From the NCBI GenBank assembly GCA_963778905.1, contig CAVZWH010000007.1:1-53052 (forward strand): a stretch of DNA of 53,052 nt. The letters run 5' to 3'. Every line of letters begins with the position of its first letter. The first letter of the stretch is position 1. Positions 7,736 through 22,277 of this stretch are shown piece by piece. This DNA is from Candidatus Staskawiczbacteria bacterium. Its GTDB lineage: Bacteria > Patescibacteriota > Minisyncoccia > Minisyncoccales > Staskawiczbacteraceae. Under the pieces are notes generated by a model. That model had not been told where the DNA came from and ran no database searches. It saw only the letters and a program-made list of their open reading frames with translations. The position numbers and the translations under genes are program-made.

Positions 7736-7905
7736 AAATGCCTCCTTGTGTTCTCAAGGAACTGAAACATTTTTGAAAATGCCGTGCTTCAAAGTACAAT
7801 ATTAGCTTACATTAATCCAAAATTAAGTCAACGGCACTATTGAATTGCGACAGATTGAAAATCGGAAGATAAACCGTCCGCGGAAACGGTTATTGTATAC
7901 GTTCC

Positions 7906-13097: not shown

Positions 13098-13125
13098 AAA
13101 AAATCGCCATCAAGGCGATTTTTTT
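13098..13125 (-). terminator. Terminator after clpB
   Basis: AAAAAATCGCC-ATCAA-GGCGATTTTTT. Confidence 0.7.
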
Positions 13126-15838
13126 ATTTTTTAGCTTTTGCTAATTTTGGCCTTTCCTGAATTCTTGGCAAAATTTTTGGCGTTTCAAAAATAATTTTTC
13201 CGTCATCTGCATCAATTAAAATTCTGCTGCCTTCTGCAATTTCATTGGTGACTATTTTAATTGACAAAGGATCCAAAATTAATCTTTGAATCACTCTTTT
13301 TAGCGGACGCGCTCCCAAATTTGGATCAAATCCTTCTTTCACCAAAAGCTCCTTTGCGCTTTGTGAAATTTCAATTTTTATTTCTTTGGCTGCCAAGCGC
13401 TTTTCAACTTTTGACAATTCCAAATCAACAATTTTTTTAATCTGTTCTTTTTGCAAATAATTAAATATCACAATTTCATCAATTCTGTTCAAAAATTCCG
13501 GGCGAAATGCGTCTCTCAACGAATCAAATATTTTTTCTCTCATTGATTCCCTTTCTGCCAATTCTTCTGTGGTGCTAAATCCAAGCGAAGACATTTTGTT
13601 AATAAAATCCGAGCCCAAATTAGAAGTCATTATAATAATTGTGTTTTTGAATGAAACTGCTCTGCCTTTTGAGTCTGTTAATCTGCCGTCTTCAAAAATT
13701 TGCAGTAAAATATTAAAAACATCCGGATGAGCTTTTTCAATTTCATCTAACAACAAAACAGAATACGGCCTGCGTCTTACTTTTTCTGTTAATTGACCGG
13801 CTTCCTCATATCCAACGTATCCTGGCGGAGAACCGATTATTTTTGAAACAGTGTGGCGCTCCATATATTCAGACATGTCCAATCTTATCATTGCTTTTTC
13901 GTCATCAAACAAAAATTCTGCCAAAGCCCTGGCTGTTTCGGTTTTTCCAACTCCTGTAGGTCCCAAAAATAGAAAAGATCCCAATGGTTTATCTTCTTCT
14001 GAAATTCCGGCTCTTGCCCTTCTTATTGCTCTTGAAATTGCTGAAATTGCTTCCTCTTGACCAACCACTCGCCTGTTCAGCGTGCCCTCCATTGTTTCTA
14101 ACTTTTTTGCTTCTTCTGTAATCAAGCGCATAACCGGAATTCCGGTCCAACGCGAAACAACTTTGGCAACTTCTTCCTCGGTCACTTCTTCTTTCATTAA
14201 TCTGTGCTCTTTTTGTATTTTTATTAATTTTTGTTCTATGGCAGCCAATTCTTTTAACAATTCCGGAATTTTTCCATATTTTATTTCAGCAACTTTTTCC
14301 AAATCAGCTTCTCTTTGGGCAATTTCTGTCTGATAAGAAAGATTATCAATTTTTTCTCTGATATCTTTTATTTTATTAATCAATTCTTTTTCAGCTCCCC
14401 ATCTTAATCTCAATGCTTTTGTTTTTTCATTCAAATCAGCCAATTCCCTGGAAATTACTTTGAGCCGTCTTTCAGATCCTTTTTCTTTTTTTAACGCCTG
14501 CTTTTCAATTTCTAATTTTGTAATTTCCTCGTTAAATTTTTCCAACTCCTGCGGGTCGGATTCGTTTTCTAATCTCAAAGCCGATGCCGCTTCGTCCATC
14601 AAGTCAACTGCTTTGTCCGGCAAAAATCGGTCAGCAATATATCTTGAAGCCAAATCAACCGCGGCCTTGATCGCCGAGTCCTTTATTTTTACTCCGTGGT
14701 GCAATTCATATTTTTCTTTGATTCCCCGTAAAATTGCGGTGGCGTCTTCGGCGTTCGGCTCCTGCACATAAATCGGCTGAAATCTTCTTTCCAAAGCAGG
14801 ATCTTTTTCAATATATTTTTGATATTCTTTCAAGGTTGTAGCTCCAATTGCCCTTAATTCTCCGCGAGACAAAGCCGGCTTTAACAAATTTGAAGCATCA
14901 ATTGCTCCCTCGGCGGCTCCCGCTCCAACCAACGTATGCAGCTCGTCAATAAACAAAATATATTTTCCAGCAGCTCTGTTCACTTCTTTTAGCAAGGCCT
15001 TAATTCTTGTTTCAAATTCTCCTCTGTATTTTGTTCCGGCAATTATGGCCCCCAAATCCAAAGAAATTATTTCTTTATCTTTCAAAAATTCCGGCACATT
15101 TCCGCGCGCAATTCTTTGCGCAAACCCTTCCACAATTGCTGTTTTTCCAACTCCGGCTTCTCCAATTAAAACCGGATTATTTTTTGTTCTGCGCGAAATT
15201 ATCTGCATTAATCTGCGTATTTCATTATCTCTGCCAATTATCGGATCAATTTTTCCTGCAGCTGCCAAGTTAGTTAAATTTCTTGTATATTTTTCTATTA
15301 CCTGATATTTTGCTTCAGGTTCTGCGTCTGTAATTCTTTGACCGCCTCTTATCTGCGACAAAATTTTCATAACTGCCTCGTAATCAAGTTTTGAATTTTT
15401 GAAACTATTTGCCTCGGACCCAAAGGGTACCCCCGCCAAAAAATTAATTTTTTCCAAAATATCTTTTGCCGTAGATTTTGTGTCCACTAAAGCCAAAAAT
15501 AAATGCTCAACTGAAATAAATTCGTCGTTCATTTTTATTGCTTCCTGCCTGGCTCTGTCTAAAACTTTTGCCATATCCTGCGTTAAATAAAACTGACCGA
15601 AAGCCTGTTGAGCAGCAATTGTCGGAATTTTCGCAATTTGCGTATCAATTTTTTTGGCTAAGGCATCTGCATCAATTCCAAGTTTTTGCAAAATTGTAAT
15701 TACAATTGAGCCTTCCTGCAAAAGCAAAGCAGACAACAAATGCAAGGCATCAATTTGCGCCTGCCCTTTTTCCTGAGCCAATTGCTGAGCCTGCATTAGC
15801 GCATCCTGAGCTTTATTTGTAAAATTATTTCCATTCAC
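13124..15838 (-). CDS. clpB: ATP-dependent chaperone ClpB
   Basis: Two AAA+ domains (GEAGVGKT/FIDELH; GPTGVGKT/LLDEIEKAH), coiled-coil M domain, Clp-N domain. The GTG start is supplied by the MITE end. Confidence 0.96.
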   Translation of the reverse strand: MNGNNFTNKAQDALMQAQQLAQEKGQAQIDALHLLSALLLQEGSIVITILQKLGIDADALAKKIDTQIAKIPTIAAQQAFGQFYLTQDMAKVLDRARQEAIKMNDEFISVEHLFLALVDTKSTAKDILEKINFLAGVPFGSEANSFKNSKLDYEAVMKILSQIRGGQRITDAEPEAKYQVIEKYTRNLTNLAAAGKIDPIIGRDNEIRRLMQIISRRTKNNPVLIGEAGVGKTAIVEGFAQRIARGNVPEFLKDKEIISLDLGAIIAGTKYRGEFETRIKALLKEVNRAAGKYILFIDELHTLVGAGAAEGAIDASNLLKPALSRGELRAIGATTLKEYQKYIEKDPALERRFQPIYVQEPNAEDATAILRGIKEKYELHHGVKIKDSAIKAAVDLASRYIADRFLPDKAVDLMDEAASALRLENESDPQELEKFNEEITKLEIEKQALKKEKGSERRLKVISRELADLNEKTKALRLRWGAEKELINKIKDIREKIDNLSYQTEIAQREADLEKVAEIKYGKIPELLKELAAIEQKLIKIQKEHRLMKEEVTEEEVAKVVSRWTGIPVMRLITEEAKKLETMEGTLNRRVVGQEEAISAISRAIRRARAGISEEDKPLGSFLFLGPTGVGKTETARALAEFLFDDEKAMIRLDMSEYMERHTVSKIIGSPPGYVGYEEAGQLTEKVRRRPYSVLLLDEIEKAHPDVFNILLQIFEDGRLTDSKGRAVSFKNTIIIMTSNLGSDFINKMSSLGFSTTEELAERESMREKIFDSLRDAFRPEFLNRIDEIVIFNYLQKEQIKKIVDLELSKVEKRLAAKEIKIEISQSAKELLVKEGFDPNLGARPLKRVIQRLILDPLSIKIVTNEIAEGSRILIDADDGKIIFETPKILPRIQERPKLAKAKK
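15416..15433 (+). repeat. 18-nt micro-hairpin repeat, in frame in clpB (GVPFGS)
   Basis: GGACCCAAAGGGTACCCC. Confidence 0.75.
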
Positions 15839-15969: not shown

Positions 15970-16013
15970 TTCATACTTTATTTATTACCATATTTATAAT
16001 ACGTTTTCAAGGC

Positions 16014-16050
16014 AAAAAAAGAGGCATCCGCGGAAAAATCCGGGACGCCT
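16014..16050 (-). terminator. Terminator of the HTH gene
   Basis: AGGCATCC-G-CGGA-AAAA-TCCG-GGACGCCT with an A tract at 16014-16020. Confidence 0.65.
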
Positions 16051-16064
16051 GTGTTAAATATTGC

Positions 16065-16539
16065 CTACTTTTTCTTGGAGGTGGCTATTAAGCCCCTTAA
16101 CCTTATGTGGCACTTCATCGCTTCCACCAGCTTTTCAAAAATCTGGGCTCGGCGCCTGTCCTCGCTGACTCCGCTTAAGTTGTCCAAAGGATCCAAATTT
16201 TTCATGACGTCCAATAAGGCGTCTGACAAACCTTTGAATCCCGACAAAACTCCGCTTCGCTTGCGCGCCTTTTCAATCATCTTTTTGAATTCTGCAGTCT
16301 TGTGGCAAAGAATCCATTTTTGGGCAGCGATGTCTCCATCAAGCCTGTCAAATGGAATTCCGCTCCTCTGCATAAATTCAATCAACGATTTTAAGGGAAC
16401 AATTCTGTAAGTGCAGCGCTGCCATGTGATGGGTTTTGAGTGCCCGTCAATTTTGCCAGAGTCTAATCAGCTTAGCGACGACCCGAGCGTTTTTGAGTCC
16501 GCAAATCTTGGCCACCTGGCCGGTTGTGTAAACCTTCAT
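16065..16539 (-). pseudogene. Excisionase/MerR-like HTH regulator with a single +1 frameshift near 16463-16466
   Basis: GGAGG SD then ATG at 16539: MKVYTTGQVAKICGLKNARVVAKLI. Removing one base from ATT-A-GAC joins DSGKIDGHSKPITWQRCTYRIVPLKSLIEFMQRSGIP..., the frame of the 106-aa track ORF. Confidence 0.75.
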
Positions 16540-16586
16540 AAACTTCCTCCGTAAAAAACAGACCTGACTTGGAAATAACCATATGC

Positions 16587-16615
16587 AGTATATCATAAAT
16601 GTTTTTAGATGTCAA
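16587..16615 (-). promoter_or_regulatory. Sigma70 promoter for the HTH gene
   Basis: TTGACA-N17-TATACT with TG extension. Confidence 0.75.
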
Positions 16616-16633
16616 CAATTTTATCCCAAACTA

Positions 16634-16662
16634 TTGACAATATAACTATAAAATGATACAAT
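16634..16662 (+). promoter_or_regulatory. Divergent sigma70 promoter
   Basis: TTGACA-N17-TACAAT with TG extension. Confidence 0.75.
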
Positions 16663-16676
16663 AAAAATATGAAACC

Positions 16677-16771
16677 AGCCCTTCTTTCAAATCATTAGTC
16701 GAATACCGAAAACTATCCTGGAAGATTTCAAGATAATAAACAAATTTCTTTAATGGTTTGAAAGAAGGGCT
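16677..16771 (+). other. Leader stem-loop: 21-bp stem (one G.U), 53-nt loop
   Basis: AGCCCTTCTTTCAAATCATTA (16677-16697) pairs with TAATGGTTTGAAAGAAGGGCT (16751-16771). Confidence 0.6.
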
Positions 16772-16819
16772 CTATTTTCTAGTTCTGAAACAGTGGAACC
16801 TTTTGAAAGGATTTGCGAA

Positions 16820-17227
16820 ATGAGTTATCTGTTTGTTTCTTGCTTATCATTGTGTGCTGTTTCCATTTACGCCATTCTTCTTTGCTCTATCACAACCGAG
16901 CATCGAGTAAAGAAAATGAACATGTGGGGATGGCCTGGCATCGTGGCTTTCTTTTTGTTGAAGAAATGCCACCGGCTCGGCATCTGGATTCGCCAGAAGG
17001 CCGGTAAAGAAATAGATGCAGAGGATTTGCCCATTGGCGAATACACTCTTATCTGCTCTTCTGAGGTGCAAACGCTAAAAGGGTGGCTGGTATACGATTA
17101 CAAATCAAGGGTAAAGGGGAAAAACAAAACCTGGACAGTGTTGTCCAGGCGGCCATTGCCCAATGATTTTGAAATCGTGACCGATGGTCGCCGCAACGCG
17201 TTGCGCAAAACAAAAAAGGCGGCTTAA
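16820..17227 (+). CDS. Hypothetical membrane protein
   Basis: Two hydrophobic segments. Start chosen at ATG 16820 with AAAGGA 8 nt upstream. GC-richer codon usage. Confidence 0.65.
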   Translation: MSYLFVSCLSLCAVSIYAILLCSITTEHRVKKMNMWGWPGIVAFFLLKKCHRLGIWIRQKAGKEIDAEDLPIGEYTLICSSEVQTLKGWLVYDYKSRVKGKNKTWTVLSRRPLPNDFEIVTDGRRNALRKTKKAA

Positions 17228-17237
17228 GCCGCATCAA

Positions 17238-17353
17238 TGGCCTAATTTGGGGAAGGCCAAATAATATTCCCCTCTTTTTTTCAGGTCATCTTGGAGGTGA
17301 TCTGAAAGAAGGAGTCCGATTGGATTGGACAAGGATTTTTTAGGAGAGTAAAG
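17238..17353 (+). promoter_or_regulatory. GGA-hairpin leader, putative multi-site CsrA target
   Basis: Three hairpins with GGA at the 3' side of the loop (17238-17259, 17280-17306, 17314-17330), ACAAGGAT at 17329-17336, SD AGGAG at 17342-17346. Confidence 0.6.
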
Positions 17354-17569
17354 ATGAACGACAGAACAAAGAGTGTGTTGGAGCAGATGAGACAGAACAC
17401 CCAGGCCGTGGTTGATGCCGCCCGCGAGAAAATCGCAACGGCAGCGGCTAAGCCCGAAGACTGCCAACCGGCGAGCTACCAGATCATTGCGTTCCCTATA
17501 CGGGTACCAATGAATGGCGGCGTTAAACGCCATCTCGGCCAACGGCAACTCCAAGAATTGCTGACCTAA
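17354..17569 (+). CDS. Small hypothetical protein
   Basis: 71 aa, AGGAG SD, followed by a terminator. Confidence 0.65.
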   Translation: MNDRTKSVLEQMRQNTQAVVDAAREKIATAAAKPEDCQPASYQIIAFPIRVPMNGGVKRHLGQRQLQELLT

Positions 17570-17602
17570 GTCAGCAACAGGTCTGCGCTTAACGCGCGAG
17601 AC

Positions 17603-17634
17603 AAAACAGGTTTGACCAGCAAACCTGTTTTTTT
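17603..17634. terminator. Bidirectional terminator
   Basis: AAAACAGGTTTG-ACCAG-CAAACCTGTTTT between convergent genes. Confidence 0.8.
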
Positions 17635-17642
17635 AATATTAA

Positions 17643-18932
17643 TTACGAACTTCTTTGACCCAATGTTACGTCAACATCCTGCTCTTTGCCGTTTCTTAAA
17701 ATATGCAACGTTATTTTATCGCCAGCATTATATTTTTCAATTATTGTTGACATTGAGTTGCTTGTTGTAATCTTTTCTCCGTTAATTGACAGAATAACAT
17801 CATTTTCTTTAATTCCTGCTTTTTCTGCCGCAGAACCCGATGTTACAGCCGGCTCGCCATTATCTCCTTTCAAAACCAAAGCTCCGTAATCTACCGGCAA
17901 ATTATATTTTTGTTTTATTGCGTCATCAACCAAAACATATCTTACTCCCAAAAATGGATAAACAATTTTGTTTGTTTTTTCAACTTGATCAATATCTTTT
18001 TTTGCCATATTAATTGGAATTGCAAAACCAATATCCTGGGCTCCCTGCGCCATTGCTGTGTCAATTCCAATAACTTCGCCTTTCAGGTTTAGCAAAGGTC
18101 CTCCGGAATTTCCGGCATTAATTGCCGCATCTGTTTGGATAATTCCTTCCAATGTTTCTGAAACATCTCCTGTCTGATCAGAAGCCGAAATTGTTCTTTG
18201 AAGCCCGGAAACAACTCCAACAGAAACCGTGTTGTTAAATTGGCCCAAAGCATTTCCAATGGCAATTGCTGTCTGGCCAATTTGTATTCCCGAAGAATCT
18301 CCAAGCACGACAGGTTGAAATGTTTTTGAAGTACTTTGAATTTTTATTACAGCCAAATCTTGCACCGGATCCAAAGCCAAAACTTTAGCTTTATATTTTT
18401 GTCCGTCATTTGTAAAAACCGTGTAATCTGCGCTGCTGTCTGAAACAACGTGTTTGTTTGTTAAAACCAAACCGTCTGTTGAGACAATAAAACCAGAGCC
18501 AGCTCCAACTTCTTGATATTGCGTTCCGTTTTGCACCTGCTCCGGAATTGAAAAATCAAATGGACTTGAGTCGCCGAAAGGATTTATAAATTGCTGTTCG
18601 TAAACTGGAACATTTTTGGAAATGACAATGCTAACCACGGATGGAGAAACATTTTTGGCTGCATCAATTATCGCCTGCTCGTAAGAAACATTTGAAGTGT
18701 ATGCGTTTGAAGACGGCTGATTTATTTTTGGGGTTGCCTCGGGCATTTTGAAATATTGTAAAAATGCCTGGGTTTCTGAGGGAAAATAATGCAAAGCAGT
18801 CATACTCGCATAAAAACCAATAATGCATCCTGCAATAATCAAAAATACAATACCCCAAAAAGTTTTATTTTTTATGGTTTTTAATATTTTATCTTTAATT
18901 TCTGTTAAATTAGATTGCGGTAAATTATACAT
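17643..18932 (-). CDS. htrA: HtrA/DegP-family serine protease with PDZ domain
   Basis: LTNKHVV, DLAVIKI, QTDAAINAGNSGGPL; C-terminal PDZ; N-terminal TM. Confidence 0.92.
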   Translation of the reverse strand: MYNLPQSNLTEIKDKILKTIKNKTFWGIVFLIIAGCIIGFYASMTALHYFPSETQAFLQYFKMPEATPKINQPSSNAYTSNVSYEQAIIDAAKNVSPSVVSIVISKNVPVYEQQFINPFGDSSPFDFSIPEQVQNGTQYQEVGAGSGFIVSTDGLVLTNKHVVSDSSADYTVFTNDGQKYKAKVLALDPVQDLAVIKIQSTSKTFQPVVLGDSSGIQIGQTAIAIGNALGQFNNTVSVGVVSGLQRTISASDQTGDVSETLEGIIQTDAAINAGNSGGPLLNLKGEVIGIDTAMAQGAQDIGFAIPINMAKKDIDQVEKTNKIVYPFLGVRYVLVDDAIKQKYNLPVDYGALVLKGDNGEPAVTSGSAAEKAGIKENDVILSINGEKITTSNSMSTIIEKYNAGDKITLHILRNGKEQDVDVTLGQRSS

Positions 18933-22176: not shown

Positions 22177-22277
22177 ATTTATCTATTATACCTTATATCT
22201 TGAAAAATTTTAATATTCTGGTAATATTATTCTGTAGTACCAACCATTCTTGATCATTGACATGGAGGAACCAGGCA

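What the first reader, a model, noticed from the sequence alone, without database searches (positions are those of the whole stretch)
17238..17353. Textbook-like multi-site CsrA-binding leader in a CPR-type genome
Seen: three hairpins each end their loop in GGA (TGGCCT-aatttgGGA-AGGCCA type at 17238-17259; an 11-bp stem with TTGGA loop at 17280-17306; a 6-bp stem with the same TTGGA loop at 17314-17330). Single-stranded AAGGAG, ACAAGGAT and the SD AGGAG follow. Established: CsrA/RsmA binds GGA in hairpin loops and ACANGGA sites overlapping SDs. ACANGGA also overlaps the SDs of two other modules (7743-7749 minus; 22260-22266). Inference: the csrA at 51342 controls a regulon made of the imported cassettes.
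Basis: partly seen in the sequence, partly recalled or inferred. Interest (0 to 1): 0.8.

Follow-up and report, generated by a model that had tools for sequence, protein, structure and literature searches.

The report
Conserved GGA-hairpin leader, possible CsrA target
The flagged stretch is a real, conserved folded RNA leader in front of a rare 71-residue gene of an ultra-small (CPR) bacterium; it shows the GGA triplet in two hairpin loops and at the ribosome-binding site, as targets of the RNA-binding repressor CsrA do, but I found no wider CsrA regulon of imported genes.

Summary
Two of them are the conserved core: H2 (17273-17313, loop UUGGA) and H3 (17314-17330, loop UUGGA), plus the Shine-Dalgarno (SD) sequence AGGAG at 17342-17346. 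This core recurs upstream of every leader-bearing homologue of the 71-aa ORF (16 loci). It is more conserved than the coding sequence, and the stems change in a compensatory way. GGA is kept in the H2 loop in 16/16, in the H3 loop in 15/16 and at the SD in 16/16. The H3-to-SD spacing is always 18-22 nt. Among 819 gene leaders of this genome it ranks first for looped GGAs.

An intact csrA (51342-51551, minus strand) is present, and all four genome-resolved carriers of the leader have csrA. CsrA repression of translation is therefore the best reading, at about 45%. It is untested. The co-occurrence carries no weight, because 58/79 genomes of the family have csrA.

Corrections:
- H1 belongs to an optional upstream ORF's terminator-like module.
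- AAGGAG is paired, not single-stranded.
- ACANGGA at SDs is only about twice expectation.
- Looped or distal GGAs are not significantly enriched upstream of GC-rich genes.

New and unexplained: the H2 apex UCUUGGAG is complementary to CUCCAAGA in codons 66-68 of the ORF, and that stretch is frozen at synonymous sites.

The parts
16634..16662 (+). sigma-70-type promoter of the cassette operon (TTGACA-17-TACAAT with extended TG)
   Evidence: 11 of 12 matches. Homologous promoters sit in L001, L004, L043, L045, L063 and L065.
16587..16615 (-). divergent promoter of the HTH gene (TTGACA-17-TATACT)
   Evidence: 11 of 12 matches
16065..16542 (-). frameshifted HTH_17 (excisionase-type) regulator gene, split by one extra base near 16465
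   Evidence: Intact homologues of 153-156 aa occur in L043 and L045; PF12728 E = 8e-7.
16677..16771 (+). P1: long 5' hairpin of the operon transcript (AGCCCTTCTTTCAAA / TTTGAAAGAAGGGCT)
   Evidence: Conserved in L001, L003, L043 and L065, where it lies directly before H2; also in G019 and G030. Rfam gives only sub-threshold hairpin hits.
16820..17227 (+). optional 135-aa ORF predicted to span the membrane twice, inserted between P1 and H2
   Evidence: no Pfam match. Relatives occur in L002, L049 and G015. Other unrelated small membrane ORFs occupy the same place in L044, L045, L062 and G460. The ORF is absent in L001, L003, L004, L043, L046 and L065.
17238..17259 (+).
   Evidence: It recurs as GGCCT/AGGCC in L062 and G460, and weakly in L044. 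It is absent from loci without the upstream ORF.
17249..17281 (+). terminator-like hairpin GGGGAA/TTCCCC followed by TCTTTTTTT. It overlaps H1, so the two either exclude each other or form a pseudoknot. It is the 3' end of the optional ORF module.
   Evidence: It is part of the MFE fold. Compensatory versions: GGGGAAC/GTTCCCC (L044, L062, G460), GGGAAG/CTTCCC (L002, L049), and an 11-bp unrelated stem in L045, always followed by T-rich TCTTTT(C/T)TT.
17273..17313 (+). H2: conserved long hairpin, core 17282-17304, loop UUGGA 17291-95. Its 3' arm holds GGAGGTGATC and AAGGAG.
   Evidence: 93.6% of cells paired; pair 16-30 changes UA to CG in 3 sequences; GU/GC/AU exchanges occur. GGA is in the apical loop region of all 16 leaders.
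17314..17330 (+). H3: short hairpin GUCCGA-UUGGA-UUGGAC that presents GGA in its loop
   Evidence: Six stem/loop versions with compensatory changes, and GGA in the loop in 15 of 16.
17342..17346 (+). Shine-Dalgarno AGGAG of the 71-aa ORF; its GGA lies 21 nt after the H3-loop GGA
   Evidence: spacing is 18-22 nt in the 15 leaders that keep the H3-loop GGA. The SD is unpaired in the MFE fold.
17354..17569 (+). p71: 71-aa ORF of unknown function (N-terminal helix, disordered tail)
   Evidence: The family has 10 cluster representatives among 1.84 billion proteins. Where flanks are known it usually lies between clpB and an HtrA-like protease gene.
17549..17556 (+). CUCCAAGA in codons Leu-Gln-Glu, complementary to the H2 apex UCUUGGAG (17289-96) and frozen at synonymous sites
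   Evidence: CTC in 12 of 12, CAA in 14 of 14, against CAG 26: CAA 7 at other Gln columns (p = 3e-7). UCCAAG is kept even where the residues are FQV or FQA (L044, G460).
17603..17640 (+). intrinsic terminator of the cassette
   Evidence: 12-bp stem plus a T run. Conserved in the homologues.
51342..51551 (-). csrA (69 aa), GC-rich, with its own promoter, leader and terminator
   Evidence: L2, L4, R6, V40, V42, R44 and E46 are kept.
51552..51625 (-). csrA leader: 5' hairpin with AGGAC apical loop, plus SD AAGGAG held in a weak CUCC/GGAG hairpin
   Evidence: Within the top 15 of 819 leaders for GGA-in-loop hairpins.

Best explanation
The stretch 17273-17353 is the conserved 5' leader of a small accessory gene, p71. 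The gene sits in the variable slot between clpB and the HtrA-like protease gene.

The leader folds into a long hairpin (H2) and a short one (H3). Each shows a GGA in its apical loop, and an unpaired SD with a third GGA follows 18-22 nt after the H3 loop.

The most likely mechanism is inferred, not shown. A dimer of the genome's own CsrA would bridge the H3-loop GGA and the SD GGA, and so block 30S binding. This is how CsrA acts on B. subtilis hag and E. coli glgC. The H2 loop would serve as an extra entry or high-occupancy site.

What is shown:
- the structure and its conservation;
- the near-invariance of the three GGAs while the stems change;
- the fixed spacing;
- an intact csrA in every genome-resolved carrier;
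- the same design (5' hairpin with a GGA loop, plus SD) on csrA's own leader.

H1 and the T-run before H2 belong to an optional upstream ORF's terminator-like module, not to this leader.
For: - Structure: MFE -44.8 kcal/mol, z = -3.4.
- Sixteen homologous leaders were read.
- On the model-fitted alignment of 15 leaders, 90.4% of cells pair, against 37-64% when the 3' partner is slid by 1-3 columns. Four pairs have double-sided changes (2 of 500 shuffles reach this). Covariation score 0.175 (4 of 500).
- H3 exists in six versions, and five of the six carry GGA in the loop: GUCCGA-UUGGA-UUGGAC, GUCUG-UUAGGAUC-CAGAC, UUCCGA-UAGGA-UUGGAA, AUCCAA-UUGGA-UUGGAU, GUCCGA-UUGGA-UCGGAC and AGUC-UGGAAG-GACU (the sixth, G460's GUCCA-AUAGAAC-UGGAC, has lost it). 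The H3-to-SD spacing is 18-22 nt in 15 of 15. This lies within the 10-63 nt bridging range, whose optimum is above 18 nt (PMC7652899).
- The leader is 69-96% identical to the window's copy, against 56-82% for the CDS at the nucleotide level.
- It ranks 1 of 819 leaders for looped GGA and for GGA count.
- CsrA is intact. The genome has no FliW.
- csrA is present in all 4 family genomes that hold the leader: G000, G015, G459 and G460.
- Five of 8 folded csrA leaders of relatives have an apical GGA loop and an SD GGA 32-41 nt downstream.
- csrA is reported among the highly expressed genes of groundwater ultra-small prokaryotes (PMC9938205).
Against: - There is no binding or expression data, and no RNA-seq run holds the locus.
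- Co-occurrence has no statistical power: csrA is in 58/79 family genomes, so 4 of 4 has p = 0.28.
- G460 has csrA but lost the H3-loop GGA (loop AUAGAAC).
- L061 carries a p71 homologue with no such leader.
- H2's 11-19 bp stem is far more stable than typical CsrA sites (at most about 4-6 bp). The loops lack the ACA / A-N-GGA context of the SELEX consensus.
- GGA is also the core of the SD, so SD-like or ribosome-related roles are not excluded.
- The H2 loop has a conserved complement inside the ORF. That could explain its invariance without CsrA.
- No further target with this architecture stands out in the genome.
Confidence: 0.45

Rival explanations
1. A structured leader that acts in cis, without CsrA. 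H2 would be a 5'-terminal stabilising or processing hairpin. Its apex (UCUUGGAG) would pair with CUCCAAGA near the 3' end of the ORF, a 5'-3' contact that controls stability or translation. This resembles the 3'UTR-5'UTR pairing of S. aureus icaR (from my own knowledge). The GGAs would be kept because of this pairing and because they resemble SDs.
For: - In the minimal version (L046) the promoter places the transcript start just before H2, which makes H2 a 5'-terminal hairpin.
- CUCCAAGA is the best duplex partner of the H2 apex in 10 of 14 mRNAs, always at the same codons.
- Synonymous sites are frozen: CTC in 12 of 12 and CAA in 14 of 14, against a CAG preference elsewhere (p = 3e-7).
- UCCAAG survives amino-acid changes (FQV in L044, FQA in G460).
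- L066 lost both the simple loop and the motif.
- In L046 a stem change lengthens the complement to 10 bp.
Against: - The duplex energy (-13 kcal/mol) is no better than shuffled apex sequences find in the same mRNA.
- L063's loop change (UCGGA) is not compensated.
- G015 keeps the loop but has no motif.
- This reading does not explain H3, whose loops keep only GGA (UUGGA, UAGGA, UUAGGAUC, UGGAAG) and have no conserved complement. Nor does it explain the fixed H3-to-SD spacing.
Confidence: 0.28
2. The leader acts mainly as a CsrA decoy. It would be a strongly promoted, GGA-dense RNA (4-6 GGA in 65 nt) that titrates CsrA as CsrB/RsmZ do, with p71 as a passenger or a second function.
For: - The GGA density is in the top 0.02% of the genome.
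- The promoter is near-consensus.
- No FliW was found, and Rfam finds no known Csr sRNA in the window, so an antagonist of CsrA is missing.
Against: - Only two or three GGAs are exposed in loops.
- The element is always fused to the p71 SD and ORF, never found alone.
- It is present in only 4 of 58 csrA-bearing genomes of the family, so it cannot be the general antagonist.
Confidence: 0.08
3. A leader micro-ORF with translational coupling. GGAGGUGA in the H2 3' arm would be an SD for a UUG/CUG-started 13-codon ORF that ends at the UAG inside the p71 SD. This would be like iraD control through a short upstream ORF (PMC5574718).
For: - The frame 17302-17343 is open in the window and in most type-A leaders.
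- GGAGGTGATC is a perfect complement of the 16S 3' end (from my own knowledge).
- Another GC-rich cassette leader in the window (34220-34447) has SD-led micro-ORFs.
Against: - The length and stop position are not conserved: 6, 12, 13 or 16 codons, and in frame with the main ORF in G015.
- The start is UUG in most leaders and CUG in three. These changes follow stem pairing (GU/GC swaps) rather than start-codon preservation.
- The start and the SD are buried in the H2 stem.
Confidence: 0.06
4. A DNA-level element. The inverted 8-mers TCTTGGAG (17289-96) and CTCCAAGA (17549-56), and the palindromes, would be operator or recombination sites, for example for the divergent HTH_17 protein.
For: - The inverted repeat is conserved, and an HTH_17 gene lies beside the cassette in the window, L004, L043 and L045.
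Against: - The HTH gene is absent from L001, L046, L062, G015 and others, and is frameshifted here, yet the leader is conserved.
- G-U pairs and GU/GC exchanges in H2 and H3 point to RNA pairing, not DNA pairing.
- The sites lie far downstream of the promoter.
Confidence: 0.04

Closest known systems
B. subtilis hag leader, repressed by CsrA (Yakhnin et al. 2007, as summarised in PMC7652899 and PMC13443453)
   Same: Both have a 5' stem-loop presenting GGA and a second GGA site overlapping the SD. One CsrA dimer is thought to occupy both sites and block ribosome binding. The site spacing here lies within the bridging range.
   Different: Here the target is a 71-aa protein of unknown function, not flagellin. 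The genome has no FliW. There are two GGA-loop hairpins, one with an unusually long 11-19 bp stem. Binding is untested.
E. coli glgC, cstA and csrA leaders, and the SELEX consensus RUACARGGAUGU (Dubey 2005 and Mercante 2009, via PMC7652899)
   Same: GGA in a hairpin loop plus a site at the SD; dual-site bridging over 10-63 nt.
   Different: The loops are UUGGA, UAGGA or UGGAAG, without the ACA context. H2's stem is much longer than the four or fewer pairs typical of SELEX ligands.
CsrB/RsmY/RsmZ decoy sRNAs
   Same: High local density of GGA motifs, some of them in hairpin loops.
   Different: This is not a stand-alone sRNA and it matches no Rfam family. Only 2-3 GGAs are looped. It is always followed by an SD and an ORF.
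S. aureus icaR 5'UTR-3'UTR pairing (from my own knowledge)
   Same: A short conserved complement links the 5' leader and the 3' part of the same mRNA.
   Different: The complement lies inside the ORF, not in the 3'UTR. It pairs with a hairpin loop, not with the SD. It is only 8 bp long and its energy is unremarkable.

Membership tests
CsrA/RsmA-regulated mRNA leader | A CsrA protein with intact RNA-binding residues is encoded in the same genome | tested here: met
   Pfam CsrA E = 1.8e-25. About 50% identity to RsmA 1vpz, with L2, L4, R6, V40, V42, R44 and E46 kept.
CsrA/RsmA-regulated mRNA leader | Two or more GGA motifs, at least one single-stranded in a hairpin loop | tested here: met
   H2 loop 17291-95 and H3 loop 17320-24. 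Conserved in 16/16 and 15/16 leaders while the stems covary.
CsrA/RsmA-regulated mRNA leader | One site overlaps the SD or the start codon | tested here: met
   The SD GGA at 17343-45 lies 11 nt before the AUG and is unpaired in the MFE fold.
CsrA/RsmA-regulated mRNA leader | Inter-site distance compatible with dimer bridging (10-63 nt, optimum above 18 nt) | tested here: met
   H3 loop to SD: 18-22 nt in 15 of 15. H2 to H3: 25-34 nt. Range taken from PMC7652899.
CsrA/RsmA-regulated mRNA leader | Extended site context (A-N-GGA / ACA..GGA, short stem, about a hexaloop) | tested here: not met
   The loops are UUGGA, with no ACA. Only the type-B H3 (UUAGGAUC) has AGGAU. The H2 stem is 11-19 bp against the SELEX description.
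CsrA/RsmA-regulated mRNA leader | Phylogenetic co-occurrence of the leader with csrA | tested here: inconclusive
   4 of 4 carriers have csrA, but so do 58/79 genomes of the family (hypergeometric p = 0.28).
CsrA/RsmA-regulated mRNA leader | Direct CsrA binding and CsrA-dependent translation | not testable with these tools
   No culture exists and no RNA runs hold the locus.
CsrB/RsmZ-type decoy sRNA | Stand-alone non-coding transcript with many repeated GGA-loop hairpins | tested here: not met
   It is always fused to the p71 SD and ORF, has 2-3 looped GGAs, and has no Rfam hit.
RNA thermometer (ROSE / fourU type) | SD sequestered in a weak, meltable hairpin | tested here: not met
   The SD is unpaired in the MFE and centroid folds. 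I considered this family only because of the clpB/htrA neighbourhood.
Intrinsic terminator (for the H1 region) | G+C-rich hairpin directly followed by a U tract | tested here: inconclusive
   GGGGAA/UUCCCC plus UCUUUUUUU is in the MFE fold, and the stem covaries across loci. Its 12-nt loop falls outside the scan's rules, and read-through must occur for p71 to be made.

The most novel reading that the evidence does not exclude
In a CPR family that kept csrA but has neither FliW nor any Csr sRNA found here, this leader would integrate two inputs. One is CsrA binding to the looped GGAs. The other is a competing contact within the same mRNA between the H2 apex and the synonymously frozen CUCCAAGA near the end of the ORF. 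The small helix-plus-disordered-tail protein p71 would be a lineage-specific partner or antagonist of CsrA, closing a feedback loop like Hag-FliW-CsrA.
Probability: 0.08. Interest if true: 0.7.

Novelty: new member of a known kind. Interest (0 to 1): 0.4.

Why it matters
CsrA is widespread, but its targets outside a few model phyla are unknown. In CPR/Patescibacteria nothing has been tested.

This leader is a concrete, short and evolutionarily validated candidate target: 16 natural variants that keep the GGA loops and their spacing. It could be tested in vitro, or in a laboratory host together with the matching 69-aa CsrA.

The work also shows that the tempting idea of a 'CsrA regulon of imported genes' has no statistical support in this genome. 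Accessory GC-rich genes simply use SDs more often than core genes do.

Tried and rejected
- Rfam, at gathering and at permissive thresholds: only sub-threshold generic hairpin hits.
- Exact 18-mer scan of 185,579 species genomes: 27 hits, all chance. Viral contigs: none.
- p71 protein searches in 60 relatives and 400 genomes of the class: only the own genome. The covariance model then found G015, G459 and G460.
- RNA-seq runs: none. DNA runs gave only low-coverage contigs.
- AlphaFold of p71: one confident helix and a disordered rest (pLDDT 68). I did not run a fold search because it would be meaningless.
- Thermometer reading: rejected, because the SD is unpaired.
- uORF reading: rejected as the main explanation, because its length and stop are not conserved and its start-codon changes track stem pairing.
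- H3 followed by a T-run was flagged as terminator-like. I rejected this because type-B leaders lack the T-run.
- Genome-wide regulon tests (looped GGA, architecture scan, ACANGGA, distal GGA) were all negative or marginal.
- My first crude gene caller was discarded and replaced.

Full report
**Setting**

The window is contig C7 of a 741-kb, 31-contig genome of 36.5% GC. Earlier notes call it CPR/Staskawiczbacteria-like.

The flagged stretch lies in a GC-richer block (16000-17640) between clpB (13124-15838, minus strand) and an HtrA-like protease gene (17643-18932, minus strand). The block contains, in order:
- a frameshifted HTH_17 gene on the minus strand (16065-16542; intact homologues match PF12728);
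- two back-to-back near-consensus promoters;
- a long 5' hairpin, P1 (16677-16771);
- a 135-aa ORF predicted to span the membrane twice (16820-17227);
- the flagged leader;
- a 71-aa ORF, p71 (17354-17569);
- an intrinsic terminator (17603-17640).

**The observation**

All three hairpins are at the stated coordinates.
- The leader folds better than all 200 shuffles (z = -3.4).
The 'single-stranded AAGGAG' is therefore its 3' arm.
- The MFE fold does not use H1. It uses GGGGAA (17249-54) / UUCCCC (17267-72) followed by UCUUUUUUU.
- csrA at 51342-51551 (minus strand) is real and intact.

**Comparative evidence**

p71 is a tiny, rare family: 4 close homologues among 5.8 billion proteins, and 10 cluster representatives among 1.84 billion. 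I read the DNA around 15 homologues and built a covariance model (R1). The model found the leader in only 4 of 79 genomes of the family: G000, G015, G459 and G460.

Where flanks are long enough, the gene usually lies between clpB and the protease gene. That spacer varies from 250 to more than 1500 nt within the genus, so it is an accessory slot.

The module H2-H3-SD is found directly before every homologue but one (L061). What lies upstream of it varies:
- P1 directly (L001, L003, L043, L065);
- a promoter only (L046, L063);
- an inserted small membrane-protein ORF ending in a hairpin plus T-run (window, L002/L049, L044, L045, L062, G460).

H1 therefore belongs to that optional ORF's 3' module, not to the p71 leader.

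**Selection on the leader**
- The 72 nt before the ATG are 69-96% identical to the window's copy. The CDS is 56-82% identical at the nucleotide level.
- On the model-fitted alignment of 15 leaders, 90.4% of cells pair, against 37-64% when the 3' partner is slid by 1-3 columns. Four pairs show double-sided changes (2 of 500 shuffles). The covariation score is 0.175 (4 of 500). That alignment leans towards the structure. It also leaves the type-B H3 out of register, which understates H3.
- Read by eye, H3 has six versions with compensatory changes: G-C to U-A or A-U at the closing pair, C-G to U-A, and G-U to G-C or A-U. Its loop is UUGGA, UAGGA, UUAGGAUC or UGGAAG.
- Only G460 has lost the loop GGA (AUAGAAC).
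- The H2 loop is UUGGA, CUUGGA or UCGGA. L066 has a 21-nt insertion there.
- The H3-loop GGA lies 18-22 nt before the SD GGA in all 15 leaders that have it.

**Is it exceptional in this genome?**

Yes.
- Six GGA in 65 nt occurs in 0.02% of windows.
- With a simple gene caller, the leader ranks first of 819 for GGA-in-loop hairpins and for GGA count. csrA's own leader is in the top 15.

**The CsrA link**
- CsrA is a trait of the family: 58/79 genomes and 13/16 genera have it, against 0 of 24 genomes from other families of the order.
- It always looks like a GC-rich, self-contained unit of promoter, leader, gene and terminator, in changing contexts.
- The genome has no FliW.
- Five of 8 folded csrA leaders have an apical GGA loop in a 5' hairpin plus an SD GGA 32-41 nt downstream. 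This is the pattern expected for autoregulation.
- All four leader-bearing genomes have csrA, but that is uninformative (p = 0.28).
- Published properties (PMC7652899): GGA in hairpin loops, sites at the SD, and bridging over 10-63 nt with an optimum above 18 nt. The H3-SD pair fits these. The long H2 stem and the missing ACA context do not.

**The regulon claim**
- GGA-in-loop hairpins occur upstream of 5/30 GC-rich genes, against 13.6% of other genes. They are no commoner than TGG, GGT or GCA loops.
- A search for the architecture 'looped GGA 17-23 nt before an SD GGA and a start codon' gave 52 mostly intragenic hits. Control triplets gave 18 to 89 hits, so 52 is not an excess.
- ACANGGA at SDs: 10/825 genes.
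- In true intergenic leaders, GC-rich genes have a GGA-type SD in 15/25 cases, against 110/427 for the rest (p = 7e-4). Distal GGA is 1.34-fold enriched, but only 53 against 42.1 without p71 and csrA (p = 0.06), and TGG is equally enriched.
- The regulon is therefore not supported. Accessory genes simply use SDs more often.

**An unexpected feature**

The H2 apex UCUUGGAG (17289-96) is the exact complement of CUCCAAGA (17549-56), which covers codons Leu-Gln-Glu.
- These codons are CTC in 12/12 and CAA in 14/14 homologues, although Gln is CAG 26:7 at other columns (p = 3e-7).
- UCCAAG persists where the residues are FQV or FQA.
- It is the best partner of the H2 apex in 10 of 14 mRNAs.
- Its energy is not better than shuffled controls, and L063 and G015 break the pattern.

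I treat this as a real nucleotide-level constraint of unknown meaning. It is the main rival explanation for the invariance of the H2 loop.

**p71 itself**

It has no Pfam match. AlphaFold gives a confident helix over residues 3-31 and a disordered remainder. Its function is unknown.

**Verdict**

This is a genuine, conserved RNA leader that is new to Rfam, and its anatomy is best explained as a CsrA-responsive translation initiation region (about 0.45). A CsrA-independent structured leader with 5'-3' pairing is the main rival (about 0.28). The broader regulon interpretation is not supported.

Noticed in passing
window 17549-17556 with 17289-17296: CUCCAAGA in codons 66-68 of p71 is complementary to the H2 apex and frozen at synonymous sites: CTC in 12/12 and CAA in 14/14, against a CAG preference elsewhere. 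UCCAAG is kept even when the residues change.
   Followed up: partly
window 16677-16771: P1 is a long hairpin (15-bp outer stem) just after the operon promoter. It is conserved in L001, L003, L043, L065, G019 and G030. Its 3' arm (UUUGAAAGAAGGG) resembles the H2 3' arm (CUGAAAGAAGGAG), so the P1 5' arm could alternatively pair with H2.
   Followed up: partly
window 16065-16542 (minus): The HTH_17 regulator gene is split by one extra base (ATT-A-GAC near 16465). Intact 153-156-aa homologues exist in L043 and L045. The read data were too thin to tell a real frameshift from an assembly error.
   Followed up: partly
window 51342-51660 and loci L033-L042: csrA is 48-57% GC in genomes of about 36% GC in every relative examined. 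Each copy has its own near-consensus promoter, structured leader and terminator, in a different neighbourhood. It is in 58/79 genomes of the family and in none of 24 from other families of the order.
   Followed up: partly
window 33953-34447 (minus): Another GC-rich cassette: a near-consensus promoter, a roughly 220-nt leader with three large-loop hairpins carrying GGAGG (one is GGAGGTGATC, as in H2) and possible micro-ORFs, then an 88-aa basic ORF and a terminator.
   Followed up: no
clpB-htrA spacer in genus relatives (L067-L088); G019 = L068: The spacer between clpB and the HtrA-like gene ranges from 250 to more than 1500 nt. In G019 it holds the same promoter and P1 hairpin, but with a 108-aa membrane/zinc-ribbon ORF and no p71.
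   Followed up: partly
L092 (G460), about 700 nt upstream of its p71 leader: A truncated second p71 start (MNERTKKEYCGV*) is followed by a terminator. It is a remnant of a tandem cassette copy.
   Followed up: no
whole genome (G000): Only about 26-27% of predicted genes have a GGA within about 25 nt of the start, against 60% of GC-rich genes. SD use looks like a property of the accessory gene pool. This rests on a crude gene caller.
   Followed up: partly
window 10198-10593 of contig C2 (not this window): A GC-rich 131-aa gene has the same cassette style (TTGACA promoter, CCCC/GGGG hairpin, T-run, ACAAGGAGG SD).
   Followed up: no
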